Source: a bacterium
GTDB lineage: Bacteria; Patescibacteriota; JABMPQ01; JAUVWW01
Assembly: GCA_030603885.1 (NCBI GenBank)
Contig: JAUVWW010000001.1
Location: 135,242-199,241 of the forward strand
Length of the DNA: 64,000 nucleotides
Reading direction: 5' to 3'
Numbering within the stretch: the first letter of the stretch is position 1; the number at the start of each line of letters is the position of its first letter. This document shows, in pieces, positions 1 to 57,490 of this stretch. A program made the position numbers and the translations under genes. The notes under the pieces were generated by a model. It was given only the letters and a program-made list of their open reading frames with translations. It was not told the origin of the DNA and did not search any database.

Positions 1-173
1 AATATATCTAGGAAAACCAAGAGAAAGAATTATAACTTGGGATGTAAAATTTTTACCTAGACTAAAGGTTGGTGATAATATTTCCTTTCACTGGAATTTT
101 GTTTGTGAGAAACTGAATCAAAAACAGATAAAGTATTTAGAGAAGTACACTAAACAAACTATAAATTTAATAA

Positions 174-938
174 ATGCCTAAAAAGCCTAGAAAAAAACCT
201 GTTATTTGTCTAACCAGCCTTACTGACTGCGAGGGTTGTCTTTTTGCTATTCTAGATTTAGGACAAAGATTTTTTGATTTATTAAAATATTTTGAGCTGG
301 GAAATTTTGATTTAATTGAAGAGTTACCTGAGCGGCCTCATTATGACATTGCTATTGTAGAGGGAACCCCAATTACTAAAGAAAACTTTAAACACCTTAA
401 GGAATTAAGAAAGAAGTCAGATCTTTTAATTTCTTTAGGAGCTTATGCTCATCTGGGAGGAATTCAACAGATCAAAAATTGGCAAAATAAAGACAAAAGA
501 ATATATCAAGTTTATAAAAAAATCCGGGGGATAAACAACCCGGATATCAAACCTATCGGGAAAATAGTCAAAGTAGATTTTGATATTCCTCAATGTCCTC
601 TCAACAACGAAGAGTTCTTGAGGATAATGTATCAACTGAAAGAAGGAAGAATGCCTAGGATCGTCAGGCGACCTGTTTGTTATGAGTGTCAGATTCGGGG
701 ATACGAGTGTCTTCTACAAAAAGATCAACCTTGTCTTGGACCAATAAGTATTGGGGGATGTGAAGCTATCTGTCCGGGCAATAGTATGTATTGTGAAGCT
801 TGTCGAGGAACTTTTCCAGAGGCGGATATTAAAGGACTCAAAAAACTAATAGGTAAAAAAGAATTTGATAGGGTAGCCCAAACCTATGGGGCTTTAGATG
901 AAATAGAGGAGGTAGAAAAGGCTTTAAAGAAGAAATAA
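174..938 (+). CDS. NiFe hydrogenase small subunit (group 3-like, Fe-S cluster subunit)
   Basis: N-terminal CEGC motif typical of NiFe small subunits; Cys-rich C-terminal region (CYECQ..CLGP..GGCEAICPG..CEACRG) consistent with Fe-S clusters; NiFe large subunit gene lies 5 kb downstream. Confidence 0.6.
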   Translation: MPKKPRKKPVICLTSLTDCEGCLFAILDLGQRFFDLLKYFELGNFDLIEELPERPHYDIAIVEGTPITKENFKHLKELRKKSDLLISLGAYAHLGGIQQIKNWQNKDKRIYQVYKKIRGINNPDIKPIGKIVKVDFDIPQCPLNNEEFLRIMYQLKEGRMPRIVRRPVCYECQIRGYECLLQKDQPCLGPISIGGCEAICPGNSMYCEACRGTFPEADIKGLKKLIGKKEFDRVAQTYGALDEIEEVEKALKKK

Positions 939-969
939 ATAGTTTAAAATCTTCTTATTTTTTATCATT

Positions 970-996
970 TTACCTTTTAATAAGGTAATTTTTTTT
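970..996 (+). terminator. candidate rho-independent terminator (TTACCTT-ttaat-AAGGTAA hairpin followed by T-run) between convergent genes
   Basis: 7-bp inverted repeat with 5-nt loop followed by TTTTTTTT read directly from sequence. Confidence 0.45.
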
Positions 997-3103
997 ATTT
1001 TTTAACTGATATAAACCTTGCATTTATGGCCACTATCACTGTACTCAAAGACATTAAAATTGCGCCTACGGCTGGTGTTAAAAGAATTCCAAAATTATAA
1101 AGAACCCCAGCTGCTAGAGGAATAGCAATAACATTGTATCCTGTGGCCCAGAGTAAATTTTGTTTCATTTTCCCATAGGTTGCTTTTGCCAGACCAATTA
1201 TAGAAACAACATCTTTTGGATCATTCCTAACTAAAACGATATCTGCTGCCTCGATTGCAACATCTGTTCCTGCTCCTATGGCTATTCCCACATCAGCTTG
1301 AACCAAGGCAGGAGCATCATTAACTCCGTCACCAACCATGGCTACTCTTAATTTCCGAGATTGCACCTTTTTAATCACTTCTGATTTTTCATGCGGCAAA
1401 ACTTCAGCAAAGAAATCATCAAGCCCTAGTTCTTTTGCCACCCACTGAGCAACTTGTTTGTTGTCACCAGTCAGCATCATACACTTGATTCCCATAGATT
1501 TTAACTTATTGATGGCTTCTTTTGATTCTTCTCTAATCAAATCAGCCAGGGCAATTGCGCCTATTATCTTATTTTCTAACAAAATATAGGTGATAGTTTT
1601 TCCTTGTTTTAACAGTTCTTCAATTCTTTCACTTTCTATTTTAATCTTGTCCTCTTTTAAATAATTTGCACCTACCGCTTTTATTAATTTTTTATTAATA
1701 ATTCCCTGAACGCCTTTTCCTGGAAGATTCAAGAATTTTTGAACAGTGCCTATTTCAATCTTCTTATCTTTGGCTTTTTTTACAATGCTTTTAGCTATAG
1801 GATGTTCTGAATTTACCTCTAGGCAGGCAGCATAAAAGAGAATATCATCCTCTTTGTATTTGTTTAAAGCAACAATATCCACAACTCCAAATTCACCTTT
1901 AGTAAGTGTGCCTGTTTTATCAAATATAATAACATCAATATTTCTTGCCTGCTCATATGCTGTCCTGTTTCTTATTAAGAGACCGTTTTTGGCTGAGAGA
2001 GCTGTTGAGACTGCTATAACCAAGGGTACAGCCAGTCCTAAGGCATGGGGACAGGTAATAACCATTACTGTAACCATTCTTTCAAGGGAAAAGACAAATT
2101 CCTTTCCCAAATAGAGCCATACCAGCAAGGTGAGCATTCCAATAGAAATAGCTGTTATTGTTAGCCACATGGCAGCTTTGTTGGCCAAGTCTTGTGTTTT
2201 TGATTTTGAGGCTTGTGCTTTTTTGACTAGATCTATTACTTGTGAAATATAAGAATCTTCGCCTGTGTGAGTTATCTTTACATTTATTGCTCCTTGGTCA
2301 TTAATAGAACCACCTATAACTTTATCACCCTCTTTTTTGCTAACGGGCTTGGATTCTCCGGTCAGCATGGCTTCATTTACGGTTGTTTCTCCTTTGATGA
2401 TTGAGCCATCTGAAGGAATTTTTTCACCTGGCTTTATAAGAACAATATTACCAATGACTAATTTTGAAACAGGGATATCTATTATTTTTCCATCTTTTAT
2501 AAGGTGCGCCTCAGAAGGAAGCAATTTAACAAGCTCTTCTAATGCACGAGAGGCGCCCAAAACAGAACGCATCTCTATCCAGTGACCTAAAAGCATAATA
2601 ACAATTAGAGTAGCCAGTTCCCAAAAGAAGAATTTTCCAGGAAGGCCAAAAACTACAGCAGTACTATAAAAAAATGCCACACTAATTGCCACGGCAATAA
2701 GGGTCATCATTCCTGGCTGTTTCTTTTTTATCTCTTGGATGAGACCTTTCAAGAACGGCCATCCACCATAGAAGAAGACAATACCAGACAAAACAAAAAG
2801 CACATATCTATCCCCAGGAAAACTTATAGTCAAGCCAAGAAATTGCTGAATTAATGGTGATAAGATCAGGATAGGAATAGTTATAACCAAAGAAACAAGA
2901 AATCTTCTTTTAAAATCCTTGACCATCATTTTATGATGGTTAGCATGTTTCTCTATATGTTCTGTTTTTTCTCCTTCTTTAACTTCTTCTAACTGAGCAC
3001 TATCCATTTCGCATTTTCCAGGAGTGTCATATTTCATGCCGCATTTAGGACATTTATATTTTTGTATTTTATTAACCATCTTTTTAGTGTCTAGAGTCAG
3101 CAA
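995..3103 (-). CDS. heavy-metal translocating P1B-type ATPase
   Basis: CPH (CPx) transmembrane metal motif (ITCPHALGLAVP), DKTGTLT phosphorylation motif, GDGVNDAPAL hinge motif, N-terminal CPKCG zinc-ribbon-like metal-binding region. Confidence 0.85.
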   Translation of the reverse strand: MLTLDTKKMVNKIQKYKCPKCGMKYDTPGKCEMDSAQLEEVKEGEKTEHIEKHANHHKMMVKDFKRRFLVSLVITIPILILSPLIQQFLGLTISFPGDRYVLFVLSGIVFFYGGWPFLKGLIQEIKKKQPGMMTLIAVAISVAFFYSTAVVFGLPGKFFFWELATLIVIMLLGHWIEMRSVLGASRALEELVKLLPSEAHLIKDGKIIDIPVSKLVIGNIVLIKPGEKIPSDGSIIKGETTVNEAMLTGESKPVSKKEGDKVIGGSINDQGAINVKITHTGEDSYISQVIDLVKKAQASKSKTQDLANKAAMWLTITAISIGMLTLLVWLYLGKEFVFSLERMVTVMVITCPHALGLAVPLVIAVSTALSAKNGLLIRNRTAYEQARNIDVIIFDKTGTLTKGEFGVVDIVALNKYKEDDILFYAACLEVNSEHPIAKSIVKKAKDKKIEIGTVQKFLNLPGKGVQGIINKKLIKAVGANYLKEDKIKIESERIEELLKQGKTITYILLENKIIGAIALADLIREESKEAINKLKSMGIKCMMLTGDNKQVAQWVAKELGLDDFFAEVLPHEKSEVIKKVQSRKLRVAMVGDGVNDAPALVQADVGIAIGAGTDVAIEAADIVLVRNDPKDVVSIIGLAKATYGKMKQNLLWATGYNVIAIPLAAGVLYNFGILLTPAVGAILMSLSTVIVAINARFISVKK

Positions 3104-3243
3104 TTTTATTATAACATAATTCTAGTTATCTAAAACTTGATATGTTTTCTTTGCTGTGGATAAATTTTGTTGCATAATTTACACAAGGGTATATTATAAA
3201 CATAGAAAGTTTAGAATAACCAAAAATTAGCTAAATTTATACC

Positions 3244-4902
3244 ATGCAAAAAGAATATTCTGTATTAGTAGGAGGACAAGCCGGAGATGGAATAAAGCAG
3301 GCCGGTAATACTATAGCTAGGTTGCTTAATAGAGTAGGCTACTGGGTTTTTGTATATGAAGATTATCCCTCTATAATTAGAGGTGGACATAACTTTGCCA
3401 TAATAAGAGCTCACCAACAAAAAATTCTTGCCCACACAGACAAAATAGATATCTTAATAGCTCTTAATCAAGACACTATTGAGAAGCACTCTGAGCGACT
3501 TAAAGAAAAACATCTAATCATTTTTGATTCAAGCTCAACAAAAGCAGAAGGATTGGGTCTTCCTTTGGGTGAAATTGTCAAAAATAAAGGACTTCCACAA
3601 ATAGTCAGAAATACCGCTGCTTTAGGAGCCCTTGCTTCTGTTTTAGGAATAGAATTTTCTATTGTTGAAGATGTTATAAAAAGTTCAATCAAAAAGAAAA
3701 CTAAAGAAAATATCGAAGTTGCCAAAGAAGTATATGACAGGGCAAAAAAATTTGAAAATTCTTTTAAGTTATCTGTACTTAAAAATCAGCCAAAACCACT
3801 TCTTACAGGAAACGAAGCCATAGCTTTAGGTGCTGTTAAGGGTGGACTTAAACTATATATAGCTTATCCAATGACGCCTGCCTCAAGTATTCTTCATTAT
3901 CTTGCAGAGCATGAAGACGAACTTAATATAGCCACAGTTCATCCAGAAAATGAAATTGGAGTTATTGGTATGGCTCAAGGCGCAGCCTATGCCGGAATTA
4001 AAACTATGATTGGAACCTCTGGAGGAGGATTTGCTTTAATGACAGAACATCTTAGTCTGGCCGGACAAGCAGAGATCCCTACTGTTTGTGTTTTATCTCA
4101 AAGACCAGCGCCTGCCACAGGCGTTCCCACCTATACTGCCCAAGGTGATTTATTTTTTGCTTTGCATGCCGGACACGGTGATTTTGCAAGAGTGGTTGTT
4201 GCTCCTGGTGATATTGAAGAAGCTTTCTATTTAACAGTAGAAGCCTTAAATTTAGCCTGGCAGTTTCAAGTGCCAGTAATATTACTTTGCGACAAACATC
4301 TAAGCGAAAGTACTTTTTCAGCCGAATTTGATGAAAGTAAAATAGTTGTAGAAAGTCCAAAATTATGGAAGGGGGAAGGGGAATACAGAAAGTATGTCCT
4401 TACCAAAGACGGGGTATCTCCTCTAGCTTTTCCGGGAGATGAGAAAGCAACTGTCAAATCAAACAGCTATGAGTGTGATGAATTTGGAATAACCACAGAA
4501 GATCCTCAACTGGTCACAAAAGGCCACGAAAAAAGATTAAAGAAGATGAAGACAATAGAAAACGAACTAAAGAAAAAGGAGACAGTTAAAATTTACGGGA
4601 ATCCAAAAAGCGATGTAGTTTTGATTACCTGGGGGTCAACTAAAGGGGCAGTAGAAGAGGTTGCTCAAACTTACAATTTAAAAGTTGTTCAACCGTTATA
4701 TCTTGAGCCTTTTCCAATATGGGATTTAAGAAAACATTTAGAAGGTGCTAAAAAAATTATTGGTGTAGAAGTAAATTCTACTGGACAGCTTTGTAATCTG
4801 CTAGAGTTTAAGGGACTTAAAGTTGACGAAAGAATCTTGAAATATGATGGGAGACCTTTTACTGTTGATGAGTTAGAAGAAAAAATTAAAAAAATCTTAT
4901 GA
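3244..4902 (+). CDS. 2-oxoacid:ferredoxin oxidoreductase alpha subunit (gamma-alpha fusion type)
   Basis: N-terminal GGQAGDG motif of the OFOR gamma domain followed by an alpha-like domain; translationally coupled to the TPP-binding beta subunit downstream. Confidence 0.7.
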   Translation: MQKEYSVLVGGQAGDGIKQAGNTIARLLNRVGYWVFVYEDYPSIIRGGHNFAIIRAHQQKILAHTDKIDILIALNQDTIEKHSERLKEKHLIIFDSSSTKAEGLGLPLGEIVKNKGLPQIVRNTAALGALASVLGIEFSIVEDVIKSSIKKKTKENIEVAKEVYDRAKKFENSFKLSVLKNQPKPLLTGNEAIALGAVKGGLKLYIAYPMTPASSILHYLAEHEDELNIATVHPENEIGVIGMAQGAAYAGIKTMIGTSGGGFALMTEHLSLAGQAEIPTVCVLSQRPAPATGVPTYTAQGDLFFALHAGHGDFARVVVAPGDIEEAFYLTVEALNLAWQFQVPVILLCDKHLSESTFSAEFDESKIVVESPKLWKGEGEYRKYVLTKDGVSPLAFPGDEKATVKSNSYECDEFGITTEDPQLVTKGHEKRLKKMKTIENELKKKETVKIYGNPKSDVVLITWGSTKGAVEEVAQTYNLKVVQPLYLEPFPIWDLRKHLEGAKKIIGVEVNSTGQLCNLLEFKGLKVDERILKYDGRPFTVDELEEKIKKIL

Positions 4903-5762
4903 AGATAGAGGATCTGAAAACATATACAGAAAACACTTGGTGTCCAGGGTGTGGAAATTTTGGCATAGAGTTTGCTGCAAAACAAGCTTTTGTTGAGCTC
5001 ATCAATGAGAAGAAGATTAAAAGAGAAGATATAGTCATTCTTTCTGGTATAGGGTGCCACGCCAAAATCGTAGATTATATTAATGTCAATTCTTTTTATT
5101 CCTTACATGGCAGGGTTCCTGCACCGGCAACCGGAATCAAAATTGCCAATCCTGAACTTTCGATCTTAGGATTTGCTGGAGATGGAGATGCCTATGGAGA
5201 AGGGTTAGTCCATTTGATATTTGCTGCCAAAAGAAACAGCGATATCACCATGGTAATTCATAACAATAGAAACTATGCTCTTACCACTGGTCAATTTTCT
5301 CCGACCTCACCTAAAGGTTTTCCAGGAAGATCAACACCAAAGGGATCGCCTGAGCCACCCCTTAATCCATTAGAACTTATGCTTGTCAGTGGCGCAACTT
5401 TTGTAGCCAGAGCCTTTACAGGAAATCCAAACCATCTTAAAGAAATTATCAAGCAGGCTATACTCCATAAGGGATTTTCCTTTATAGATGTTTTGCAGCC
5501 CTGTGTCACTTATTACAATACCTTTGAGTTTTACCGAAAGACAGTTTATGAATTAAAAGATCATGATTCATCTAGCCGAGAAGCTGCCATGAAAAAAGTT
5601 AAGAAATGGAATTATCTAGATGGAGAGAAAGGAAAAATACCCATCGGAATTTTCTATCAAGTTAAAAAACCCACTTTTGAAGAAATTATTCTTAAAGAGA
5701 AAAAGCCCTACGGGCTTCCTATCCCTAGTCTGAAAAAGCTCTTAAAAAGACATAACAGCTAA
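4899..5762 (+). CDS. 2-oxoacid:ferredoxin oxidoreductase beta subunit (TPP-binding)
   Basis: CPGCG N-terminal cluster motif; GDGD...YG TPP-binding motif (FAGDGDAYGEG); start overlaps the alpha stop (ATGA). Confidence 0.8.
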   Translation: MKIEDLKTYTENTWCPGCGNFGIEFAAKQAFVELINEKKIKREDIVILSGIGCHAKIVDYINVNSFYSLHGRVPAPATGIKIANPELSILGFAGDGDAYGEGLVHLIFAAKRNSDITMVIHNNRNYALTTGQFSPTSPKGFPGRSTPKGSPEPPLNPLELMLVSGATFVARAFTGNPNHLKEIIKQAILHKGFSFIDVLQPCVTYYNTFEFYRKTVYELKDHDSSSREAAMKKVKKWNYLDGEKGKIPIGIFYQVKKPTFEEIILKEKKPYGLPIPSLKKLLKRHNS

Positions 5763-5805
5763 AGAAGTTCTATAAGAAAGAACTTTTGAGGTTTTGATTT
5801 TTATT

Positions 5806-7074
5806 ATGCCCAAAATAACTCGCATTAAAATCGATCATATTGACAAAATCGAAGGACACGCTGGATTTGTGGGAAAGCTATTGAACGGAAAAGTAAAAGA
5901 AGCTAAATACGAGGTTAAACAAGGAATCAGGTTAATTGAAGCTATTCTCAGGGGTAGGCCTTATGAAGATGCACCTATTATCACTGCTAGGATTTGTGGA
6001 ATCTGTCCTGTGGTTCACAATCTTTGTGCTATCAAGGCCTTAGAAAAAGCTATAAAGATAAAACCTTCGCCACAGACTATAACTTTACGTAAGATAATGA
6101 TGCTTGGTCAACTTATCCAAAGCCATAGCTTGCATGTCTATTTCCTTTGCCTTTCTGACTTTTTTAAATACAAAAGTGATCTCAAATTAATCAAAAGATT
6201 CCCTCGGACTACTAAGAGAATCTTTAAGATCAGAGACTTTGGAAATAAGCTTATAGCCTCGATCGGCGGCCGCAGTATTCACCCTTTAACTACAGAGGTA
6301 GGAGGATTTAAGAAATTACCTAAAGTTGAAGACATTAGGACACTTTTAGATGAGCAACCCAAGATACTAAAAGAAGCTTTGGCTGTAGCTAATATATTTG
6401 CCTTTCTTTTATATCCTAAATTTGAAAGGAAGACGGAATTTGTAGCTTTGACATCTACTAAAGAATATGCTATTTATGATGGAAAAGTTGTTTCTTCAAA
6501 CGGTCTAGAATTTCTGCCTGAGGAGGTTACAGAGAAAATTCAAGAAATCCAATATCCTTCAGAGCCAGTTAAAAGAGTTCTACATGATGACATGCCAATT
6601 ATGCCTGGGGCCCTAGCTCGTCTAAATATCAATTATAAAAAATTAAATCCAAAAGCTAAGAAGGCTTGGAATAAATTCGGAGTTAAACTACCTACTTATA
6701 ATTCCTTTTATAATATCTATGCCCAAGTAGTAGAAATTATTAATTGTGTTGAAGAATCTAAGAAACTACTGCGAAAGTTGATAAAAAGGAAGTTGAGGAG
6801 TCCTTGGCAAAAATTTAAGCCTAAAGCTGGCCGAGGCATAGCAGCTATAGAGGCTCCACGCGGTACTCTATATCATGATTATACTGTAGATAAAAAAGGC
6901 ATTATCAAACATGCTAACATTATTACTCCCACGGCTCAGTTTATTTGTAATCTTGAAGAAGATATTAAGGAATTCATTCCTGACCTAAGGAAACTCAAAC
7001 CAGAAGCCCGTAGACAAAAAATTAGAATGCTCATCCGTGCTTATGATCCTTGTATGACTTGCTCAGTACATTAA
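5806..7074 (+). CDS. NiFe hydrogenase large subunit
   Basis: N-terminal RICGICPVVH (RxCGxCxxxH L1 motif) and C-terminal DPCMTCSVH (DPCxxCxxH L2 motif); protein ends at the His with no C-terminal extension. Confidence 0.8.
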   Translation: MPKITRIKIDHIDKIEGHAGFVGKLLNGKVKEAKYEVKQGIRLIEAILRGRPYEDAPIITARICGICPVVHNLCAIKALEKAIKIKPSPQTITLRKIMMLGQLIQSHSLHVYFLCLSDFFKYKSDLKLIKRFPRTTKRIFKIRDFGNKLIASIGGRSIHPLTTEVGGFKKLPKVEDIRTLLDEQPKILKEALAVANIFAFLLYPKFERKTEFVALTSTKEYAIYDGKVVSSNGLEFLPEEVTEKIQEIQYPSEPVKRVLHDDMPIMPGALARLNINYKKLNPKAKKAWNKFGVKLPTYNSFYNIYAQVVEIINCVEESKKLLRKLIKRKLRSPWQKFKPKAGRGIAAIEAPRGTLYHDYTVDKKGIIKHANIITPTAQFICNLEEDIKEFIPDLRKLKPEARRQKIRMLIRAYDPCMTCSVH

Positions 7075-7086
7075 TTAAAAGCCTAT

Positions 7087-7344
7087 ATGCACGATCTATT
7101 AACCGCACAAGATATTTTAAAAACCGCATTACGATACGCTAAGAGAAATAAGCTTAAGTCTGTCACTAAAATTGTTATTGGGCTAGGTTCGATTTCTGCC
7201 CACGGAGAAACTATAACTTCCGATAGTTTAAAATTTAATATCAATGTGCTTTCGAAAAATACGACCGCTAAAGACGCTAAGATAATTATTGAAGAAGTAG
7301 ATGGAGATGCCTGGAAGCTTAAATCTATTGAAGGAATAAAATAG
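7087..7344 (+). CDS. HypA-like nickel-insertion protein, N-domain only (no zinc finger)
   Basis: Begins MHD (HypA MHE Ni-binding N-terminus); the MHDLLTAQDIL..SVTKIVIGLGSIS region resembles the HypA N-domain; 85 aa, no Cys, so the CxxC...CxxC Zn site is absent; lies immediately downstream of the hydrogenase large subunit. Confidence 0.4.
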   Translation: MHDLLTAQDILKTALRYAKRNKLKSVTKIVIGLGSISAHGETITSDSLKFNINVLSKNTTAKDAKIIIEEVDGDAWKLKSIEGIK

Positions 7345-7431
7345 AAATCAAGATTTAGGCTTTTAAAAAATTAGCAATATGGTATAATGAAATTAAGCTC
7401 ATATGAGCTTAATTATTTAGTTTGTAAAAAT

Positions 7432-8571
7432 ATGAAGAAAGTATACTTAGACAACGCAGCTACTACTCCTCAAGATCCCGAAGTAGTAGAAGCTATGCTT
7501 CCTTATTTTAAAGAGCATTTTGGCAATCCTTCTTCTATTCATGCTTTTGGTCAAAAAGCTAAAGAAGGAATAGATAAAGCCCGAAAAATCATAGCTAAAA
7601 AGATAAAAGCTAATCCAGATGAGATTATTTTTACCTCTGGAGGAACAGAGGCCAATAACCTAGCTTTAAAAGGGATAGCTCATACCCAAAAAGCTAAGGG
7701 AAATCATATTATCACTTCTCAAATAGAGCACCATTCAGTTTTGAATACTGCAAGGCAGTTAGAAAAAGAAGGGTTCAAAGTTACTTACTTAAAGGTAGAT
7801 AAGGAAGGACTTGTTGATCCCAAAGAGCTAGAGAAAGCTATTACCAAAGAAACTATCCTTGTTTCTGTTATGGCTGCTAACAATGAAATCGGGACTATTG
7901 AGCCTACCCGAGAGCTGGCCAAAGTAGCCCGAAGTCATAAAATCTATTTTCACACAGATGCTGTCCAAGCTTTTTGTAAGATACCCTTTGATGTGGGATG
8001 GGGAATAGACTTAGCCTCTTTCTCGGCCCATAAAATTCATGGACCAAAAGGAATAGGAGCTTTGTATATTAAAAGAGGAACAAAGATCCAACCTCGGCAA
8101 GTAGGAGGGCATCAAGAATTTGAAAAAAGGGCAGGCACAGAAAATGTACCAGCAATAGTGGGATTTGGAAAAGCAGTGGAAATATATAATGTGGACGAGT
8201 TAAGGAAGATAGCCGAACTAAGAGATAAGTTAATTGAAGGAGTCATAAACAAGATTCCTAAAGTAAAACTAAATGGCCCTAAGGAAAAAAGATTGCCTAA
8301 TATTGCTAACTTTTCTTTCCTTGGAGTAGAGGGAGAAGCTTTACTTATGGAATTAGACTCAAAGGGGATAGCTTGTTCAACTGGTTCTGCCTGTGCTGCA
8401 CCAACTTTAGAGCCAAGCCATGTTCTCCAAGCCATAGGCATAACGGCTATTGTTGCTCATTCTTCTTTGAGGATGAGCTTGGGGAAAGAAAATAGCGAGG
8501 AAGACATAGACTATGTTTTAGAGATATTACCTCAAGCCGTAAAAAATCTAAGGAAAATTAGCCCATTTTAA
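7432..8571 (+). CDS. iscS: cysteine desulfurase (IscS/NifS family)
   Basis: Class V aminotransferase pattern; PLP-Lys motif SFSAHKIHGPKG; active-site Cys loop (CSTGSAC); followed directly by IscU. Confidence 0.85.
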   Translation: MKKVYLDNAATTPQDPEVVEAMLPYFKEHFGNPSSIHAFGQKAKEGIDKARKIIAKKIKANPDEIIFTSGGTEANNLALKGIAHTQKAKGNHIITSQIEHHSVLNTARQLEKEGFKVTYLKVDKEGLVDPKELEKAITKETILVSVMAANNEIGTIEPTRELAKVARSHKIYFHTDAVQAFCKIPFDVGWGIDLASFSAHKIHGPKGIGALYIKRGTKIQPRQVGGHQEFEKRAGTENVPAIVGFGKAVEIYNVDELRKIAELRDKLIEGVINKIPKVKLNGPKEKRLPNIANFSFLGVEGEALLMELDSKGIACSTGSACAAPTLEPSHVLQAIGITAIVAHSSLRMSLGKENSEEDIDYVLEILPQAVKNLRKISPF

Positions 8572-8574
8572 AGT

Positions 8575-8961
8575 ATGTATACTAAAAAAGTAATTCAACT
8601 ATTTAAGCATCCTCATAATGTAGGAAAAATAAAAAATCCAGATGGACTAGGAAAAGCTGGCAATCCTGTCTGTGGAGACATTATGTGGATTTATATTAAG
8701 ATAGGGAAGAATAAAAAGGGAGAAGAAACAATAAAAGATATTAGATTTTCTACTTTTGGCTGTGCCGCTGCTATTGCTACCTCTTCCATGGTTACTGATC
8801 TAGCTAAAGGAAAAACCATCAGCGAGGCTAAGAAAATAACCAGAAAAGATGTAGCTGATGAGTTAGGAGGTCTACCACCAGTCAAATTTCATTGTTCTAA
8901 TTTGGCAGTTGATGCTTTACATAAAGCTATCCAAAACTATGAAAAGAAGAAACACAAATAG
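8575..8961 (+). CDS. iscU: Fe-S cluster assembly scaffold IscU/NifU
   Basis: Three conserved Cys in GNPVCGD, FGCAAAIA and HCSNLAV contexts. Confidence 0.85.
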   Translation: MYTKKVIQLFKHPHNVGKIKNPDGLGKAGNPVCGDIMWIYIKIGKNKKGEETIKDIRFSTFGCAAAIATSSMVTDLAKGKTISEAKKITRKDVADELGGLPPVKFHCSNLAVDALHKAIQNYEKKKHK

Positions 8962-10072
8962 AAAAATTCTTACAATCTGTTTTTGCTTGCTAATTTTAGT
9001 CTCATTACTTTTTCCTCGTCTAATAGAAGCCCAAGAAGAAAGGCTTCAGGTTTATTATTTTTATGGGGTGGGCTGTCCGGCTTGCGCTAAAATAAAACCC
9101 TATCTTGAAGAGTTACAGAAAAAATATTCTGATGTAGAATTTAAATTTTTGGAAGTTCGGGCAAACAAGGATTTATTTTTAAAGATCGCAGAAGTTTATG
9201 GAGTTGAAGCTGGAGCTATACCTTCAATATTTGTTCATGACAAGAATTTAGTAGGAACTAAAGAAATAAGAGATAATCTTGAAAACCAACTGATTAGCTG
9301 TCTTGAAAAAGAATGTAAATGTGACCCTTTTCGATTAAAAGAGAGATGCATTTGTAGTCCCGAAGATTTAGCTCAAGAAGTCGAACCTTGTCCAACAAAG
9401 CTTACAATTCTCCCAGTCTTGGGAGCAGCAGCAGTAGATGCTATCAATCCTTGTGCTTTTGCGGTTCTGATTATACTCATGACTTGTGTCTTAGCTTCTG
9501 GGTCTAAAAAACGTGCTTTAGGCTTTGGACTTTGCTTTGTTTTAGCAGTTTATGTCTGTTATTTCCTGATGGGGCTAGGACTATTTCAAGTTATCAAAAG
9601 CCTGGCTCTGACTTCTATAATTTATAAAATTGCCGGGGGACTAGCTATAGTCGTTGGTCTTCTCAATATTAAAGACGCTATCAGATGGGGGGCAGGCGGA
9701 TTTGTGATGGAGGTACCATTAAGTTGGCGACCAAGAATGAAAAAAATTATTACTTCTGTAACTTCAGCCCCAGCAGCTCTTTTGGCTGGATTTCTAGTTA
9801 GTCTGTTTTTGCTCCCTTGTACTTCAGGACCTTATATAGTTATTCTAGGAATGCTGGCTGAAAAAGTTACCAGGCTAAGTGCTTTAGGTTACTTATTTTT
9901 GTACAACTTCATTTTTGTTTTGCCTATGATAGTTATTACCTTGATTGTATATAAAGGATTTAAGACAGCTACCCTAGAAAGATGGAGAGCTAAGAGAATT
10001 AAATTATTCCATCTAATAGCTGGTTTGATTATGATAGGATTGGGAATAGTAATATTGTTAGATATAATTTAA
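8939..10072 (+). CDS. thiol:disulfide interchange protein, thioredoxin-like domain fused to DsbD/CcdA membrane domain
   Basis: Signal/TM, CPAC thioredoxin motif (YGVGCPACAKI), Cys-rich linker, multi-TM region with NPCAF and LPCTSGPY motifs typical of CcdA/DsbD. Confidence 0.6.
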   Translation: MKRRNTNRKILTICFCLLILVSLLFPRLIEAQEERLQVYYFYGVGCPACAKIKPYLEELQKKYSDVEFKFLEVRANKDLFLKIAEVYGVEAGAIPSIFVHDKNLVGTKEIRDNLENQLISCLEKECKCDPFRLKERCICSPEDLAQEVEPCPTKLTILPVLGAAAVDAINPCAFAVLIILMTCVLASGSKKRALGFGLCFVLAVYVCYFLMGLGLFQVIKSLALTSIIYKIAGGLAIVVGLLNIKDAIRWGAGGFVMEVPLSWRPRMKKIITSVTSAPAALLAGFLVSLFLLPCTSGPYIVILGMLAEKVTRLSALGYLFLYNFIFVLPMIVITLIVYKGFKTATLERWRAKRIKLFHLIAGLIMIGLGIVILLDII

Positions 10073-10105
10073 AAGAAATTAATAATTTCTTAAGTCTCAA
10101 AAACT

Positions 10106-10552
10106 ATGAACAAGAAAATCGTCATCGTTATTGTGGTTTTAGTCCTAATTGGTGGCCTTGGCTATTTATTAGCCAAAAGATCTAGAATTATCAAAATTGG
10201 ACAGCCACAAGAAGAGATGGTCCTTGAGGAGTCTGGGTCTGAGTCTGAAGAGGAAACGCCTAAGGACGAAGCATCTTTAGAAGACCTTGCTAAATGTTTG
10301 GAGGAAAAGGGGATCAAATTTTATGGTACTTCTTGGTGTGGCTGGTGTAATCGTCAGAAACAGCTTTTTGGTGAAGCAGCTAGGTATCTCCCTTATGTTG
10401 AATGTACGGATAAGGAAACCAATCAGATGACTGAAGAATGTCAAAAAGCAGAAATCTCTGGTTTTCCCACCTGGGATTTTTTCGGAGAAAAAGAAGCTGG
10501 TTTTAAATCTCTTGAGGAATTAACTGAGCTATCCGACTGCTCACTAAAGTGA
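10106..10552 (+). CDS. membrane-anchored thioredoxin-fold protein (CxxC)
   Basis: N-terminal TM helix, acidic linker, WCGWC active-site motif. Confidence 0.5.
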   Translation: MNKKIVIVIVVLVLIGGLGYLLAKRSRIIKIGQPQEEMVLEESGSESEEETPKDEASLEDLAKCLEEKGIKFYGTSWCGWCNRQKQLFGEAARYLPYVECTDKETNQMTEECQKAEISGFPTWDFFGEKEAGFKSLEELTELSDCSLK

Positions 10553-10596
10553 ACTAAAAAATATGAGAATATATGTAGTTTTGCTAAACTGACGAT

Positions 10597-11349
10597 ATGA
10601 GTATTTTATTTTATATACTGATAAGCACATCTTTGATTAGTCTAATCGCTTTTATTGGGGTCTTATTTTTATTTTTAAAAGAGAAGCTTTTGACTAAAAT
10701 CCTTCTAATTTTAGTAGCTTTCTCTGCTGGGACTTTAATTGGGGGAGCATTTTTACATCTAATCCCAGAGGCAATTGCTAGAGTTGGAGCTAGTGAGACT
10801 TCTGTGTTAGGCCTGTTTTTATACTTACTCCTTGGTTTCTGTATCTTCTTCATTCTAGAACAATTTATTAGATGGCATCATCACCATGCTATACGACATC
10901 CTAAAATAAGACCCTTTTCTTATTTAATTTTAATTTCAGATGGCGTACATAATTTTATTGATGGTTTAGTAATTGCTGCTTCTTTTGTCGTCGCCTTCCC
11001 AATTGGAGTGGTCACTGCTTTGGCGGTAGCTTTGCATGAAATTCCTCAAGAAATTGGTGATTATGGGATTTTAATCTATGGCGGATTTAAAAAGGTTAAA
11101 GCTTTATTCTTAAACTTTTTATCAGCCATCACTGTTGTTTTTGGTGGAATTGCTGGATTTTTGCTTTCGGAAAAAATAGGAGAATCAATTGTTTTCCTTT
11201 TACCCTTTGCTGCTGGAAATTTCATTTACATTGCCTCTGCAGACTTGATTCCAGAAATTAAACATAGAGTAAGCATTAAGAAATCATTGATACATTTTAT
11301 TGTTTTTCTGTCAGGCATGGGTTTAATGTTATTAATAAAGTTATTATAA
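10597..11349 (+). CDS. ZIP family divalent metal (zinc) transporter
   Basis: Multi-TM; HHHH loop; conserved HNFIDGLVIAASF and HEIPQEIGDYG motifs of ZupT/ZIP. Confidence 0.75.
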   Translation: MSILFYILISTSLISLIAFIGVLFLFLKEKLLTKILLILVAFSAGTLIGGAFLHLIPEAIARVGASETSVLGLFLYLLLGFCIFFILEQFIRWHHHHAIRHPKIRPFSYLILISDGVHNFIDGLVIAASFVVAFPIGVVTALAVALHEIPQEIGDYGILIYGGFKKVKALFLNFLSAITVVFGGIAGFLLSEKIGESIVFLLPFAAGNFIYIASADLIPEIKHRVSIKKSLIHFIVFLSGMGLMLLIKLL

Positions 11350-11480
11350 ATAAAGTCATTGCTAGAAAAATTGGCCCAGGAGCTCAAAGAAACCTTGAAG
11401 CTTTTGGGATAAAGCTTGTTTTGACCAAAGAAAATAAACCAGAAAAAGTTATCTAATAATTAATTGACTAAAGAAAAACT

Positions 11481-12041
11481 ATGCAGAAAACCAAAGAAAA
11501 TCTACTCAAAGCTTTTGCTGGCGAATCCATGGCCAGGAACAAATACACCCTCTTTGCCAAAAAAGCTCGTCAAGAAGGGTATGAGCAAATTGCAGCTATT
11601 TTTGAAGAAACAGCAGACAACGAGAAAGCACATGCAGAAAGACTGATTAGTTTTCTAAAGAGTGAAACCAAAGCTACCTTAGCTGACTTTCCCTTAGCCG
11701 AGGTGGGGGACACCAAAACAAATCTAAAAGCAGCAGCTCAAGGAGAGCATTATGAATGGACAGAGATGTATCCAGACTTTGAAAAAGAAGCAAGAGATGA
11801 GGGAGAAAATGAAATTGCAGATGCTTTTAAAGAGATAGGCGAGGTAGAGGAGCAGCATGAGAAAAGGTATTTGGCTTTATTAAAAAATATAGAACAAGAA
11901 AAGGTATTTAAGAAAGACAAGGAAGTATATTGGAAATGCCGCAACTGTGGCTATATTCACAAAGGAAAAGAGGCTCCCAAAGAATGTCCTTCCTGTGGCT
12001 ACCCCCAGAGTTACTATGAACTTTGGTGTCAGAATTATTAA
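11481..12041 (+). CDS. rubrerythrin
   Basis: Diiron ferritin-like EExxH-type region plus C-terminal rubredoxin-like CRNCGY...CPSCG. Confidence 0.8.
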   Translation: MQKTKENLLKAFAGESMARNKYTLFAKKARQEGYEQIAAIFEETADNEKAHAERLISFLKSETKATLADFPLAEVGDTKTNLKAAAQGEHYEWTEMYPDFEKEARDEGENEIADAFKEIGEVEEQHEKRYLALLKNIEQEKVFKKDKEVYWKCRNCGYIHKGKEAPKECPSCGYPQSYYELWCQNY

Positions 12042-32188: not shown

Positions 32189-33607
32189 ATGATTGAAAGA
32201 AAAATTACAATCGATCCAAAAAGTGAAATTTTCCGTTGGGGTCCAGTTCCTGGAAAATTTATTTATACGAGCCATTTTGTTGTAGTTAATTTTCGATACT
32301 TTTGTAAAAAATGGGGAGGTCAATGGCCAAAAACTTTATTTTTATTTAAAAACAATAGGATGGTTTGGATTAATGAATATCCTTCCTTACGTTCTATGGG
32401 AAGGCAAGTCTTTAAAAATTGGATGCTTCCAGTTAAAAAAAGAAAACGAGTTTGGACTGACTGGCAAAAAGCTTTAAGGGAATTAATCTCACTTGAAAAA
32501 GATATCGATATTCTAAATCTAAAGAAGTTAAACAATCAAGAACTTTTAAAACTCTGGCAAGAGATAACCCAAAAATATATTAATTTTTGGGTTCCTTCAA
32601 CTGTACCTGAGTTAGGAAATTATGGCGCTGATTTTTGGTTAAAGGAACGCCTTAAAATATATATAAAAAGTGAGCAAGAGTTGCTAGATGCTTTAGAAAT
32701 TCTTACCGCTCTAACTAAACCCTCATTTTACCAAGAAGAAATAATAGATCTTTGTCGAGCAAAATCTTTAGAAGAGCATCAAAAGAAATATTTTTGGCTT
32801 AGAAATAGCTATGCTGGGGTTAAGACTTTATCCTTAGATTACTTTAGGAAAAGAAGGAAACAAATAAAGAATCCAAAAAGAGAAATAAAAAGAATTAAAA
32901 GAAATTTAGCATTGGCTAAGTTACGAAAAAGCAGATTAGCCAAGCGTTTAAAACTAGATCAACTAACTATAAAAATAGCCTGGAGTATAAGTGAAGGAAT
33001 GGTCTGGCAAGACCAAAGAAAAAAATACATCTTTATTACTATTTATTATCTTCACCAAATCTTGAAAGAAATAGGAAAACGCTTTCGCTATGCGTCTTAC
33101 GATTTAGAATATCTTTGGCCAAAAGAGATAGAAGAAATTATAAAAGGAAAAAATTTCAAAAAAATAATAAAGCAAAGAAAAAAAGGATTTGGAGTACATT
33201 TCTATAAATCAGTAAGAAATTTAAATCCAAAGGAAGTAAAAAAGTATTGGAAATCATTTCAAGAAAAACCCATCTTTAAAAAGATTAAGGTAATTCAAGG
33301 TCTACCAGTAAGCAAAGGCATAGCAAAAGGAAAAATTAGGATCCTAATGGATCCCTTTAAGATTTCTAAATTTAAAAAAGGAGAAATTCTAGTAGCTCCC
33401 ATGACTTCTCCAGAGTATATTTTTGTTATGCAAAAAGCCAAGGCAGTAATAACTGATGCCGGTGGTCTAACTTGCCATGCTGCCATTGTCTCCAGAGAAC
33501 TAAAAATTCCTTGTGTTGTTGGTACTAAAATCGCAACCAAAGTTTTGAAAGACGGAGATAAAGTAAAAGTAGACGCAAATAAAGGAATAATTAGAAAAAT
33601 AAAATGA
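32189..33607 (+). CDS. PEP-utilising-enzyme mobile (phosphohistidine swivel) domain protein, array paralog 1; divergent N-terminal domain
   Basis: C-terminal DAGGLTCHAAIVSRELKIPCVVGTKIATKVLKDGDKVKVDANKGIIRKI matches the PEP-utilisers His-domain signature (GG.TsHAAI.aRElGIP); N-domain carries the family motifs K.YFW..N.Y and W.D.RK...KEIGKRF. Confidence 0.75.
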   Translation: MIERKITIDPKSEIFRWGPVPGKFIYTSHFVVVNFRYFCKKWGGQWPKTLFLFKNNRMVWINEYPSLRSMGRQVFKNWMLPVKKRKRVWTDWQKALRELISLEKDIDILNLKKLNNQELLKLWQEITQKYINFWVPSTVPELGNYGADFWLKERLKIYIKSEQELLDALEILTALTKPSFYQEEIIDLCRAKSLEEHQKKYFWLRNSYAGVKTLSLDYFRKRRKQIKNPKREIKRIKRNLALAKLRKSRLAKRLKLDQLTIKIAWSISEGMVWQDQRKKYIFITIYYLHQILKEIGKRFRYASYDLEYLWPKEIEEIIKGKNFKKIIKQRKKGFGVHFYKSVRNLNPKEVKKYWKSFQEKPIFKKIKVIQGLPVSKGIAKGKIRILMDPFKISKFKKGEILVAPMTSPEYIFVMQKAKAVITDAGGLTCHAAIVSRELKIPCVVGTKIATKVLKDGDKVKVDANKGIIRKIK

Positions 33608-33611
33608 AATA

Positions 33612-38774: not shown

Positions 38775-38775
38775 T

Positions 38776-40296: not shown

Positions 40297-40300
40297 AAAT

Positions 40301-41770: not shown

Positions 41771-41872
41771 TTATCTTAAACTTCATACTAAAAAGGGTAT
41801 TCCAGATAATTCCTCAGACATGAGTCGCAAAAGAAGTTTTAAGATGATAAGATATAATTGATAATTAAATAA

Positions 41873-57439: not shown

Positions 57440-57490
57440 ACTTTCATTATACTGCCTTTGATGGTATAATACAAGACGTAAGTTATTTCC

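What the first reader, a model, noticed from the sequence alone, without database searches (positions are those of the whole stretch)
174..7344. Split NiFe hydrogenase locus: subunit genes 5 kb apart, large subunit ends at the cleavage His, truncated HypA
The small (174..938) and large (5806..7074) subunit genes are separated by a divergent metal P-type ATPase and an archaeal-type two-subunit (gamma-alpha fusion plus beta) 2-oxoacid:ferredoxin oxidoreductase. No beta or gamma diaphorase subunits typical of group 3b are present. The large subunit terminates exactly at DPCMTCSVH with no C-terminal extension, so no endopeptidase maturation step is implied, as in Ech, CooH and sensory hydrogenases. 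The downstream 85-aa HypA-like protein keeps the MH(D/E) Ni-binding N-terminus but lacks the zinc-finger Cys entirely. Co-localising OFOR with the hydrogenase would suggest ferredoxin-coupled H2 metabolism.
Basis: partly seen in the sequence, partly recalled or inferred. Interest (0 to 1): 0.55.

Follow-up and report, generated by a model that had tools for sequence, protein, structure and literature searches.

The report
Interrupted CPR hydrogenase operon, minimal maturation
This is a hydrogen-metabolising enzyme locus typical of the tiny Patescibacteria (CPR), here interrupted by 4.85 kb of inserted DNA; its odd-looking features (no tail to clip off the catalytic subunit, a half-size nickel chaperone) are shared by the whole bacterial group and are not damage.

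Summary
Small-subunit (174-938) and large-subunit (5806-7074) genes of a group-3b-related [NiFe]-hydrogenase are separated by a CopB-like P-type ATPase (minus strand) and a two-subunit OFOR. An 85-aa Cys-free HypA-like gene follows.

- The split is a lineage-specific ~4.85 kb insertion. Relatives at ~81% nt identity have the two genes adjacent, and 15 of 70 CPR loci also carry 0.6-8.5 kb of unrelated DNA there.
- "No beta/gamma subunits" is a window-edge effect. The window begins inside the DUF6390 gene, which in relatives follows beta-gamma-HypC-EamA.
- Ending at the cleavage His is clade-wide (120/120 best homologues), so it is not truncation. Pyrococcus SHI, by contrast, needs FrxA to remove -VVRL.
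- The mini-HypA is a conserved family: present in 60 CPR loci, MHD start, invariant His39. Its model (pLDDT 88.5) matches the HypA nickel domain (TM 0.89).
- OFOR is linked to the hydrogenase only here, so ferredoxin coupling is weakly supported.

This is either a real defect or a sequence error.

It is a known CPR "hyd1" locus with apparently undescribed minimal-maturation features.

The parts
2..181 (+). 3' end (last 59 codons) of a DUF6390 gene, cut by the window edge. It is the HypC-like C-terminal domain of a putative hydrogenase maturation factor and overlaps the small-subunit start by 8 nt.
   Evidence: Frame-2 translation. The 97.7%-identical contig L001 extends it to 179 aa, which hits PF19927 DUF6390 at 7.7e-34. 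hhalign of the DUF6390 C-terminal domain against HypC gives probability 96%, E 4.7e-9.
174..938 (+). [NiFe]-hydrogenase small subunit (delta, HyhS-like), 254 aa. Eight Cys for the medial and distal [4Fe-4S] clusters are intact. The proximal-cluster set is C19, C22, C141 plus Tyr91 (TAT, 444-446) where Cys is expected.
   Evidence: aligned to P. furiosus SHI delta: 'avgacavqgg' against 'slgayahlgg'. Cys in 120/120 homologues, including the 98%-identical P0121. TAT versus TGT in L001.
939..5792 (.). About 4.85 kb of DNA inserted between the small- and large-subunit genes. It is absent from relatives at ~81% nt identity (L002, L003, L004). Its left junction is shared by the 97.7%-identical contig L001.
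   Evidence: blastn of L001-L004 against the window. Gene calls on L002-L004 show delta and alpha adjacent.
970..996 (+). AT-rich hairpin (ttacctt-ttaat-aaggtaa) followed by a T-run, between the convergent small-subunit and ATPase genes. Possible terminator of the small-subunit transcript.
   Evidence: Read directly from the sequence. The consensus scan did not call it because it has too few G-C pairs, so this is an inference only.
995..3103 (-). P1B-type heavy-metal ATPase, copper-type (CopB-like), with a CPH transmembrane motif, DKTGT and a His-rich N-terminus.
   Evidence: TIGR01511 633.7 bits, cut-off 397. Motifs read from the translation.
3244..4902 (+). 2-oxoacid:ferredoxin oxidoreductase alpha subunit, a gamma-alpha fusion (POR domain, then POR_N, then PFOR_II).
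   Evidence: TIGR03710 577 bits, cut-off 483.
4899..5762 (+). 2-oxoacid:ferredoxin oxidoreductase beta subunit (TPP-binding). It overlaps the alpha gene by 4 nt and ends 43 nt before the large-subunit start.
   Evidence: TIGR02177 291 bits, cut-off 262. Spacer sequence.
5806..7074 (+). [NiFe]-hydrogenase large subunit (alpha, HyhL-like), 422 aa. L1 motif RICGICPVVH and L2 motif DPCMTCSVH are intact, and the stop codon follows the His directly.
   Evidence: All 120 best homologues end at the His. No deviation at 78 columns conserved at 95% or more.
7087..7344 (+). Mini-HypA: an 85-aa nickel-binding-domain-only HypA with an MHD N-terminus, conserved His39 in a family-specific 4-residue insert, no Cys and no zinc finger.
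   Evidence: AlphaFold2 model pLDDT 88.5. Foldseek top 14 hits are all HypA; T. kodakarensis 3A43 gives TM 0.89, rmsd 1.8.
7387..8961 (+). NifS cysteine desulfurase (7387-8571) and NifU/IscU scaffold (8575-8961). They lie directly downstream on the same strand and supply Fe-S clusters. They are neighbours, not proven parts of the system.
   Evidence: TIGR03402 545 bits; TIGR03419 178 bits.

Best explanation
The locus is the distal part of a Patescibacteria (CPR) 'hyd1'-type, group-3b-related cytosolic [NiFe]-hydrogenase operon. Its canonical order in relatives is beta - gamma - HypC - EamA transporter - DUF6390 - delta (small) - alpha (large) - mini-HypA.

In this strain lineage a ~4.85 kb segment has been inserted into the short delta-alpha spacer. 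The segment carries a copper-type P1B ATPase on the opposite strand and a two-subunit 2-oxoacid:ferredoxin oxidoreductase on the same strand. The inference is that the small subunit now ends one transcription unit, while the large subunit and mini-HypA are read through from the OFOR genes.

The catalytic subunit is intact. As in the whole CPR clade, it is made in its final length and ends at the His that other hydrogenases expose only after endopeptidase cleavage, so active-site closure needs no protease. Nickel is presumably delivered by the co-encoded 85-aa HypA, which consists only of the nickel-binding domain: an MHD N-terminus plus a clade-invariant His39 in a 4-residue insert. The Fe(CN)2CO unit would come from HypC/D/E/F encoded elsewhere, as seen next to the hydrogenase in other CPR genomes.

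The enzyme most likely works as in relatives, as an NAD(P)H-linked, fermentative H2-evolving (or sulfhydrogenase-like) alpha-delta-beta-gamma complex, with beta and gamma encoded just upstream of the window.

Shown: gene identities, the insertion, clade-wide conservation of the extension-less C-terminus and of mini-HypA, and the HypA fold. Inferred: transcription units, protease independence, nickel ligands, presence of beta/gamma upstream, and direction of catalysis.
For: - Best family and structure matches are group 3b alpha/delta. All close homologues are Patescibacteria proteins.
- The insertion: L002-L004 (~81% nt identity) align to window 150-910 and then directly to 5793 onwards, while L001 (97.7%) shares the small-subunit-to-ATPase junction.
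- Canonical operon order is seen in L002, L088, L090, L091 and in dozens of the 80 species-representative loci.
- The window's first 181 nt are the end of DUF6390.
- 120/120 large-subunit homologues end at the His. The window's large subunit deviates at none of 78 conserved columns.
- The archetypal 3b enzyme needs FrxA to remove -VVRL (PMC2865534).
- Mini-HypA lies downstream of the large subunit in 60 loci. It is 77-95 aa, starts [M/V]HD in 58/60, and has no Cys in 49/60. His39 is present in 58/59. About 95 representative clusters at 50% identity exist.
- The confident model matches the HypA nickel domain.
- HypC, D, E and F sit beside the hydrogenase in L026 and in Moranbacteria-type loci. 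A simple motif scan found no HypB or protease signature in 1.2 Mb of flanks.
- The CPR hyd1 clade with a ~250-aa small subunit, beta/gamma and a HypC-like family is described by Jaffe et al. 2020 (PMC7304191).
Against: - The upstream part of this genome could not be retrieved, so beta/gamma are inferred from relatives only.
- The small subunit carries Tyr at the invariant proximal-cluster Cys91, and Asp at the near-invariant Gly184. If real, these could impair electron transfer.
- The mini-HypA of this window departs from the family consensus at E38A and N47S.
- Promoter and terminator scans were no better than shuffled sequence, so the two-transcript model is unproven.
- The absence of HypB and of an endopeptidase was tested only by crude motifs within +/-10 kb of other CPR hydrogenases, not genome-wide.
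Confidence: 0.72

Rival explanations
1. The enzyme is a stand-alone alpha-delta hydrogenase without diaphorase subunits. It takes electrons from ferredoxin reduced by the co-localised OFOR, giving pyruvate/2-oxoacid-driven H2 evolution.
For: - OFOR alpha/beta lie directly upstream of the large subunit on the same strand, with a 43-nt spacer. This favours co-transcription and co-regulation.
- No beta/gamma genes occur inside the window.
- Some CPR hydrogenase loci lack detectable beta/gamma near the hydrogenase: Moranbacteria-type loci, and Jaffe et al..
- An electron-bifurcating or second electron path has been proposed for CPR 3b enzymes (PMC10811913).
Against: - The window edge cuts the operon inside DUF6390. 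Every close relative with upstream sequence has beta and gamma there.
- OFOR is next to the hydrogenase in 0 of 80 other CPR loci.
- The same segment also brought in an unrelated copper ATPase, which suggests a chance insertion.
- No ferredoxin CxxCxxCxxxCP motif is present anywhere in the 64 kb.
Confidence: 0.12
2. The hydrogenase is being lost in this genome. After the operon was broken by the insertion, the small subunit acquired a disabling mutation of a proximal [4Fe-4S] ligand (C91Y), and the locus is an early pseudogene stage.
For: - Tyr91 replaces a Cys present in 120/120 homologues.
- Asp184 replaces a Gly conserved in 90% or more of sequences.
- Both are G-to-A changes derived on the window's branch relative to the 98%-identical L001 protein and to outgroups.
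- The mini-HypA also departs from consensus at two conserved positions.
Against: - There are no frameshifts or stop codons in any hydrogenase gene.
- The large subunit is perfect at all 78 conserved columns.
- Between the window and L001, the small subunit shows 12 synonymous against 4 non-synonymous differences, consistent with purifying selection.
- One deviation at a conserved column is common among homologues (35 of 121).
- L001 shares the insertion junction yet keeps Cys91 and Gly184.
- A single-base assembly or consensus error in a metagenome-assembled genome would give the same picture.
Confidence: 0.13

Closest known systems
CPR/Patescibacteria 'hyd1' group-3b-related [NiFe]-hydrogenase clusters (Jaffe et al. 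2020, BMC Biol, PMC7304191; Valentin-Alvarado et al. 2024, Microbiome, PMC10811913)
   Same: The large and small subunits are 50-75% and 50-98% identical to Patescibacteria proteins. The small subunit is ~250 aa. A HypC-like family lies upstream. Relatives carry beta (Fer4) and gamma (FAD/NAD) subunits.
   Different: Here the delta and alpha genes are separated by 4.85 kb (ATPase plus OFOR), and the small subunit has Tyr for Cys91. The passages of those papers retrieved here do not mention the extension-less C-terminus, the Zn-less HypA, or the HypC-like nature of DUF6390.
Pyrococcus furiosus SHI / Thermococcus kodakarensis Hyh (archetypal group 3b; PDB 9E15, 9NEZ, 5YXY)
   Same: These are the best solved-structure matches: alpha E 4e-63 over the full length, delta E 6e-32. 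The L1/L2 Cys motifs are identical in type, and the eight Cys of the medial and distal clusters are the same.
   Different: The Pyrococcus alpha precursor has four extra residues (-VVRL) that FrxA must remove for activity (PMC2865534); the CPR protein stops at the His. The Thermococcales HypA is 139 aa with a Zn finger; here it is 85 aa without one.
Hydrogenases that naturally lack the C-terminal extension (Ech, CooH, regulatory HoxC/HupV)
   Same: The large subunit ends at or right after the conserved His/Arg of the L2 motif, so no endopeptidase substrate exists. That these groups lack the extension is established knowledge, not a result obtained here.
   Different: Those belong to groups 4 and 2b. 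This enzyme is 3b-related by sequence, a group whose characterised members are processed.
HypA/HybF nickel metallochaperones (Pfam PF01155)
   Same: The N-terminal M-H-(D/E) nickel motif is present. The Pfam gathering score is passed. The predicted fold superposes on the HypA nickel-binding domain.
   Different: The whole CxxC...CxxC zinc domain is replaced by a tight turn. A 4-residue insert carries an invariant His.

Membership tests
Group 3b [NiFe]-hydrogenase (HydDB class; sulfhydrogenase/Hyh type) | Large subunit with L1 (RxCGxCxxxH) and L2 (DPCxxCxxH) motifs providing four Cys ligands | tested here: met
   RICGICPVVH and DPCMTCSVH are present.
Group 3b [NiFe]-hydrogenase (HydDB class; sulfhydrogenase/Hyh type) | Closest sequence similarity to 3b reference enzymes rather than to 3a, 3c, 3d, 1, 2 or 4 | tested here: met
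   NCBIfam ShyA 250 bits and HydA 241 bits, against VhuA 158 and FrhA 126. PDB: Pf/Tk 3b about 217 bits, against Mvh 168, HoxH 139-163 and Frh 141 or less. All scores are below the equivalog cut-offs, so it is a divergent clade. HydDB itself could not be run.
Group 3b [NiFe]-hydrogenase (HydDB class; sulfhydrogenase/Hyh type) | Heterotetramer with beta (Fe-S) and gamma (FAD/NAD(P)) diaphorase subunits encoded alongside | not testable with these tools
   The window begins inside DUF6390, 173 nt before the small subunit, and the contig's upstream sequence was not retrievable. Relatives encode beta and gamma upstream.
Group 3b [NiFe]-hydrogenase (HydDB class; sulfhydrogenase/Hyh type) | Small subunit with three [4Fe-4S] clusters (4 + 8 Cys ligands) | tested here: inconclusive
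   Eleven of the twelve ligand positions are Cys. Position 91 is Tyr in the window but Cys in 120/120 homologues.
Group 3b [NiFe]-hydrogenase (HydDB class; sulfhydrogenase/Hyh type) | C-terminal extension removed by a dedicated endopeptidase (a property of characterised members, not a formal criterion) | tested here: not met
   The stop codon follows the His directly, as in all 120 CPR homologues. Pf SHI has -VVRL and needs FrxA.
HypA (PF01155 / TIGR00100) | Sequence match above the curated threshold | tested here: met
   Pfam 38.6 bits against a cut-off of 28.9. The NCBIfam equivalog TIGR00100 gives 39.1 bits against a cut-off of 88.1, which is not met, as expected for a half-length protein.
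HypA (PF01155 / TIGR00100) | N-terminal Met-His-Glu nickel-binding motif | tested here: met
   The window has MHD, a conservative Asp for Glu. [M/V]HD occurs in 58 of 60 CPR orthologues.
HypA (PF01155 / TIGR00100) | Nickel-binding-domain fold | tested here: met
   AlphaFold2 pLDDT 88.5. Foldseek top 14 hits are all HypA: 3A43 TM 0.89, 6G81 TM 0.80.
HypA (PF01155 / TIGR00100) | Structural zinc site (two CxxC pairs) | tested here: not met
   The window protein has no Cys, and 49 of 60 orthologues have none. In alignment the zinc domain is replaced by a turn.
Two-subunit 2-oxoacid:ferredoxin oxidoreductase (OFOR/KorAB type) | Alpha subunit with fused gamma (POR) domain and TPP-binding beta subunit, both scoring above subfamily cut-offs | tested here: met
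   TIGR03710 577 bits (cut-off 483). TIGR02177 291 bits (cut-off 262). Pfam POR, POR_N, PFOR_II, TPP_enzyme_C and PFO_beta_C all hit. Substrate specificity was not tested.
P1B-type heavy-metal ATPase (copper subgroup) | TIGR01511/TIGR01525 above cut-off; DKTGT phosphorylation site; CPx transmembrane motif | tested here: met
   633.7 bits (cut-off 397) and 619.4 bits (cut-off 346). DKTGT and CPH are read in the translation. Metal specificity was not tested.

The most novel reading that the evidence does not exclude
Patescibacteria hyd1 hydrogenases are matured by a stripped-down nickel-insertion route. The large subunit is synthesised at mature length, so there is no proteolytic checkpoint. An 80-95-aa zinc-less HypA builds its nickel site from the MHD N-terminus plus a clade-specific His in an (E/D)HGE insert, possibly without HypB. 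A DUF6390 protein, consisting of a novel N-terminal domain fused to a HypC-like domain with the Cys conserved, acts as an additional Fe(CN)2CO chaperone. This would be the smallest natural [NiFe] maturation toolkit attached to a group-3 enzyme.
Probability: 0.4. Interest if true: 0.6.

Novelty: new variant of a known kind. Interest (0 to 1): 0.42.

Why it matters
[NiFe]-hydrogenase maturation is usually described as needing HypA (with a zinc domain), HypB and a nickel-sensing endopeptidase that acts as the final quality check. The archetypal group 3b enzyme is inactive without its protease.

A whole bacterial radiation appears to run a 3b-type enzyme with a full-length-as-made catalytic subunit and a half-size HypA. 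This offers a natural minimal system for asking what the zinc domain and the cleavage step are actually for. It could also simplify heterologous production of NAD(P)-linked hydrogenases.

For this particular window the practical message is more modest. The split is an insertion, the missing diaphorase subunits are a window-edge effect, and metabolic inference for this genome should take into account a possibly defective small subunit (C91Y).

Tried and rejected
- **Retrieving the contig upstream of the window to look for beta/gamma.** Exact-protein look-ups of the large and small subunits found no record. The genome is not among the GTDB representative contigs; the best hit there was 53% identical. 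Two metagenome scans gave nothing close.
- **First structure prediction of the 85-aa protein.** With only 8 aligned sequences the model was unusable (pLDDT 48.7). It was repeated with 86 sequences.
- **Promoter/terminator scan of 1-9200.** Counts did not differ from shuffled sequence (29 against 26.6; 11 against 7.2), so no transcription-unit claim rests on it.
- **Truncation or pseudogene of the large subunit.** Rejected: 120/120 homologues share the ending, and there are no deviations at conserved columns.
- **The idea that Cys12 compensates for the lost Cys91.** Rejected: relatives P0121 and P0123 have Cys12 together with Cys91.
- **The ATPase as a hydrogenase-linked nickel transporter.** It is copper-type by NCBIfam. 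ATPase homologues upstream of beta in L005 and L017 are only 37-38% identical. No functional link is claimed.
- **Hyp genes in the window.** A motif search for HypB/C/D/E and for the endopeptidase found none. Pfam checks of unassigned ORFs found none either.
- **Rfam.** It found only one tRNA in the window.
Full report
**1. What is in the sequence**

- a 254-aa ORF at 174-938 (+)
- a 702-aa ORF at 995-3103 (-)
- 552-aa and 287-aa ORFs at 3244-4902 and 4899-5762 (+)
- a 422-aa ORF at 5806-7074 (+); the frame opens at a TTG at 5794, but homologues begin MPKITRIKIDH at the ATG
- an 85-aa ORF at 7087-7344 (+)

Pfam and NCBIfam identify them as follows:
- [NiFe]-hydrogenase small subunit: Oxidored_q6 1e-17; sulfhydrogenase delta 7e-48
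- copper-type P1B ATPase: TIGR01511 634 bits, above its cut-off
- two-subunit 2-oxoacid:acceptor oxidoreductase: a gamma-alpha fusion plus beta, both above subfamily cut-offs
- [NiFe]-hydrogenase large subunit: sulfhydrogenase alpha 3.5e-74
- HypA: 38.6 bits against a Pfam cut-off of 28.9, matching only profile positions 1-72 of 112

NifS and NifU follow at 7387-8961. The best solved structures are the group 3b enzymes of Pyrococcus furiosus and Thermococcus kodakarensis, for both subunits.

**2. Whose gene cluster this is**

All close homologues of both subunits come from Patescibacteria/CPR metagenome-assembled genomes, including Portnoybacteria, Moranbacteria and Parcubacteria. This is the CPR-specific, 3b-related clade that Jaffe et al. 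(2020, PMC7304191) called hyd1. That clade has a small subunit of about 250 aa, beta and gamma subunits upstream, and a HypC-like family nearby.

I reconstructed the canonical order from four sources:
- contigs of close relatives
- relatives with large subunits 57-60% identical
- 80 species-representative CPR loci
- Pfam checks of intervening ORFs

The order is beta (Fer4) - gamma (FAD/NAD) - HypC - EamA transporter - DUF6390 - small - large - short HypA. The cluster is often embedded among glycolysis or pentose-phosphate genes.

**3. The "split" is an insertion**

Contigs L002, L003 and L004 are about 81% identical to the window in the small-subunit gene. They align to window 150-910 and then jump directly to window 5793 onwards. 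Their gene calls show the small and large subunits adjacent. Window 939-5792, carrying the ATPase and OFOR, is therefore about 4.85 kb inserted into the delta-alpha spacer.

Contig L001 is 97.7% identical over window 1-1067. It shares the small-subunit-to-ATPase junction, so the insertion is real and is shared by a sister strain.

Interruptions at this position are not rare. Among 70 CPR loci holding both genes, the gap sizes are:

| Gap between the small- and large-subunit genes | Loci |
|---|---|
| 150 nt or less | 40 |
| 151-600 nt | 15 |
| 601-1500 nt | 13 |
| more than 1.5 kb (L035 2.2 kb; L029 8.5 kb) | 2 |

The inserted genes are unrelated between lineages. They include a secreted ~320-aa protein in Moranbacteria, membrane proteins, a DNA methylase and a methyltransferase. 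OFOR lies within 10 kb of the hydrogenase in none of the 80 loci.

**4. "No beta/gamma subunits" is a window-edge effect**

The first 181 nt of the window encode, in frame 2, the last 59 residues of a protein. L001 extends this protein to 179 aa, which matches Pfam DUF6390 at 7.7e-34. In relatives DUF6390 sits immediately upstream of the small subunit, and beta/gamma lie further upstream. That position is outside this window. I could not retrieve the upstream part of the 199-kb source contig. The presence of beta/gamma here is an inference from relatives, and their absence cannot be claimed.

**5. The C-terminus**

The large subunit ends ...DPCMTCSVH-stop. All 120 best homologues also end exactly at this His. 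In 119 the motif is DPCxxCxxH, and one has DLCISCAVH. All but one carry the RxCGxCxxxH motif. The window protein deviates at none of the 78 alignment columns conserved at 95% or more. This is a clade-wide trait and not a truncation.

It does differ from characterised group 3b enzymes. The P. furiosus and T. kodakarensis precursors are 428 aa and align only to residue 424. Sun et al. (2010, PMC2865534) showed that the four residues -VVRL must be removed by the protease FrxA for any activity. In the papers I could search I found no statement of this for CPR enzymes.

**6. The 85-aa HypA**

The protein has no Cys and starts MHD. Orthologues lie just downstream of the large subunit in 60 of the CPR loci. 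They are 77-95 aa apart from three outliers of 68, 95 and 120 aa. [M/V]HD starts 58 of 60, and 49 of 60 contain no Cys.

A profile search of 1.84 billion representative proteins found 170 hits at E of 0.001 or better. About 95 of the listed hits are of this short type (74-97 aa), and canonical 113-140-aa HypAs appear only at E of about 1e-5.

Alignment with canonical HypAs shows two differences. The CxxC...CxxC zinc domain is replaced by a tight turn. A 4-residue insert, (E/D)HGE, is added; its His39 is present in 58 of 59 sequences.

An AlphaFold2 model from 8 sequences was poor (pLDDT 48.7). With 86 sequences it reached pLDDT 88.5. Its 14 best Foldseek hits in the PDB are all HypA, including T. 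kodakarensis 3A43 (TM 0.89, rmsd 1.8) and H. pylori 6G81 (TM 0.80). This is a real HypA reduced to its nickel-binding domain. That His39 supplies a nickel ligand is my inference.

**7. Other maturation genes**

The window holds no HypB/C/D/E/F or endopeptidase, by motif scan and by Pfam checks of unassigned ORFs. Other CPR genomes encode HypC, HypD, HypE and HypF next to the hydrogenase. L026 was confirmed by Pfam, and many Moranbacteria-type loci by motif. The Fe(CN)2CO pathway is therefore canonical in the clade. A crude motif scan found no HypB or protease signature in 1.2 Mb of hydrogenase flanks; this is suggestive only.

DUF6390 itself has a C-terminal domain homologous to HypC (hhalign probability 96%, E 4.7e-9). 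Its conserved Cys aligns with the essential Cys2 of HypC (weak Pfam HupF_HypC hit). No paper in the searchable library mentions DUF6390.

**8.

In the alignment with P. furiosus SHI delta, the window's small subunit reads SLGAYAHLGG where the archetype reads AVGACAVQGG. This is the GxCxxxGG Cys. By established knowledge of [NiFe] small subunits and NuoB-type proteins, that Cys ligates the proximal [4Fe-4S] cluster.

All 120 homologues have Cys here, including the protein of L001, which is 98% identical. The window has TAT against TGT in L001. A second derived G-to-A change gives Asp184, where Gly is at least 90% conserved.

The other eleven cluster Cys are intact. The small subunit differs from L001 by 12 synonymous and 4 non-synonymous changes. 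There is thus no general decay. The choice is between a real point mutation that weakens or remodels the proximal cluster and a base-calling or consensus error in the assembly. I cannot decide between them without the reads.

**9. How it most likely works**

Best explanation (confidence about 0.7): this is a CPR hyd1 NAD(P)-linked fermentative hydrogenase whose operon was interrupted by an insertion.
- The small subunit ends one transcript. An AT-rich hairpin plus T-run at 970-996 is visible but was not called by the scan.
- The large subunit and mini-HypA are read through from the OFOR genes; the spacer is 43 nt.
- Maturation uses HypCDEF for the iron unit, the mini-HypA for nickel, and no protease.

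The ferredoxin-coupled dimer model rests on a juxtaposition unique to this lineage, and no ferredoxin is encoded in the window. I give it about 0.12. The "locus in decay" model rests on C91Y; I give it about 0.13.

**10. Novelty and score**

The locus belongs to a published kind, CPR 3b-related hydrogenases. As far as the searchable literature shows, three aspects are undescribed:
- the clade-wide loss of the cleavable extension in a group whose archetype strictly needs cleavage
- the zinc-less HypA family with its extra His
- the HypC-like nature of DUF6390

I class it as a new variant of a known kind, of moderate interest to hydrogenase-maturation specialists. The headline feature of the original finding, the split locus, is ordinary genome shuffling.

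Noticed in passing
window 444-446 (codon 91 of the small subunit) and 723-725 (codon 184): Codon 91 reads TAT (Tyr) where all 120 homologues have Cys, the proximal [4Fe-4S] ligand in the GxCxxxGG motif. The 98%-identical L001 protein also has Cys. Codon 184 reads GAT (Asp) where Gly is at least 90% conserved. Both are G-to-A changes derived in the window.
   Followed up: yes
window 2-181; L001 1-540; L007 9298-10014: DUF6390, encoded directly upstream of CPR hydrogenase small subunits, has a C-terminal HypC-like domain (hhalign probability 96%). A conserved Cys aligns to HypC Cys2. It also has an N-terminal domain with conserved CGP and PHHSFHV motifs. No paper in the library mentions this family. 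In the window the gene ends three codons earlier than in L001 (TAA against CAA at 179-181).
   Followed up: partly
L007 8406-9311; L090 7594-8520; L091 1432-2358: An EamA/DMT-family transporter gene is conserved between HypC and DUF6390 in many CPR hydrogenase operons. A role in nickel or another metal supply is conceivable but was not tested.
   Followed up: no
window 32189-43405 and 46094-47146 (+): There is a tandem array of about nine paralogous 350-525-aa proteins, each ending in a PEP-utilizers mobile (swivel) domain. Pfam PF00391 was confirmed for two of them; the rest were judged by eye. They lie in a low-GC stretch (0.28-0.31) next to a stand-alone PPDK_N ATP-binding protein at 45152-46087. 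This is an unusual paralogue expansion.
   Followed up: partly
window 51835-52365 (-), 53862-54653 (-), 56429-57499 (-): An AMMECR1 protein, a LigB/Memo-like protein and a radical SAM protein lie close together, resembling an AmmeMemoRadiSam-type trio. An F420-0:gamma-glutamyl ligase-like gene sits among them at 53098-53859.
   Followed up: partly
window 8909-12041 (+): Downstream of NifS/NifU lies a run of metal and redox homeostasis genes: a thioredoxin-fold membrane protein, a secreted thioredoxin-like protein, a ZIP metal transporter (10597-11349) and rubrerythrin (11481-12041). Together with the CopB-like ATPase, this gives the neighbourhood a metal-handling character.
   Followed up: partly
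L048, L051, L060, L062, L075 (between the small- and large-subunit genes): Moranbacteria-type loci share a conserved ~320-aa protein with an N-terminal signal or transmembrane segment, inserted between the two hydrogenase structural genes (38-46% identical to each other). These ORFs were not scanned against Pfam. A different 240-aa ORF at the same position in L012 had no Pfam match.
   Followed up: partly
alignment, small-subunit position 19: Four of 120 CPR small subunits have Asp instead of the first proximal-cluster Cys. From memory, the F420-reducing hydrogenase has an Asp ligand at its proximal cluster; this parallel was not checked here.
   Followed up: no
L064 and L084 mini-HypA orthologues: Some mini-HypAs carry His-rich insertions around the conserved His39 loop (HNHQHEHEHDEH in L064; SHGNHSH in L084). 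This is consistent with nickel binding or storage at that loop.
   Followed up: no
window 26311-28785 (+): An 824-aa protein with an N-terminal membrane region has weak HerA/TrwB/TraG-type coupling-ATPase matches. It may be a remnant or component of a conjugative or type IV system.
   Followed up: no
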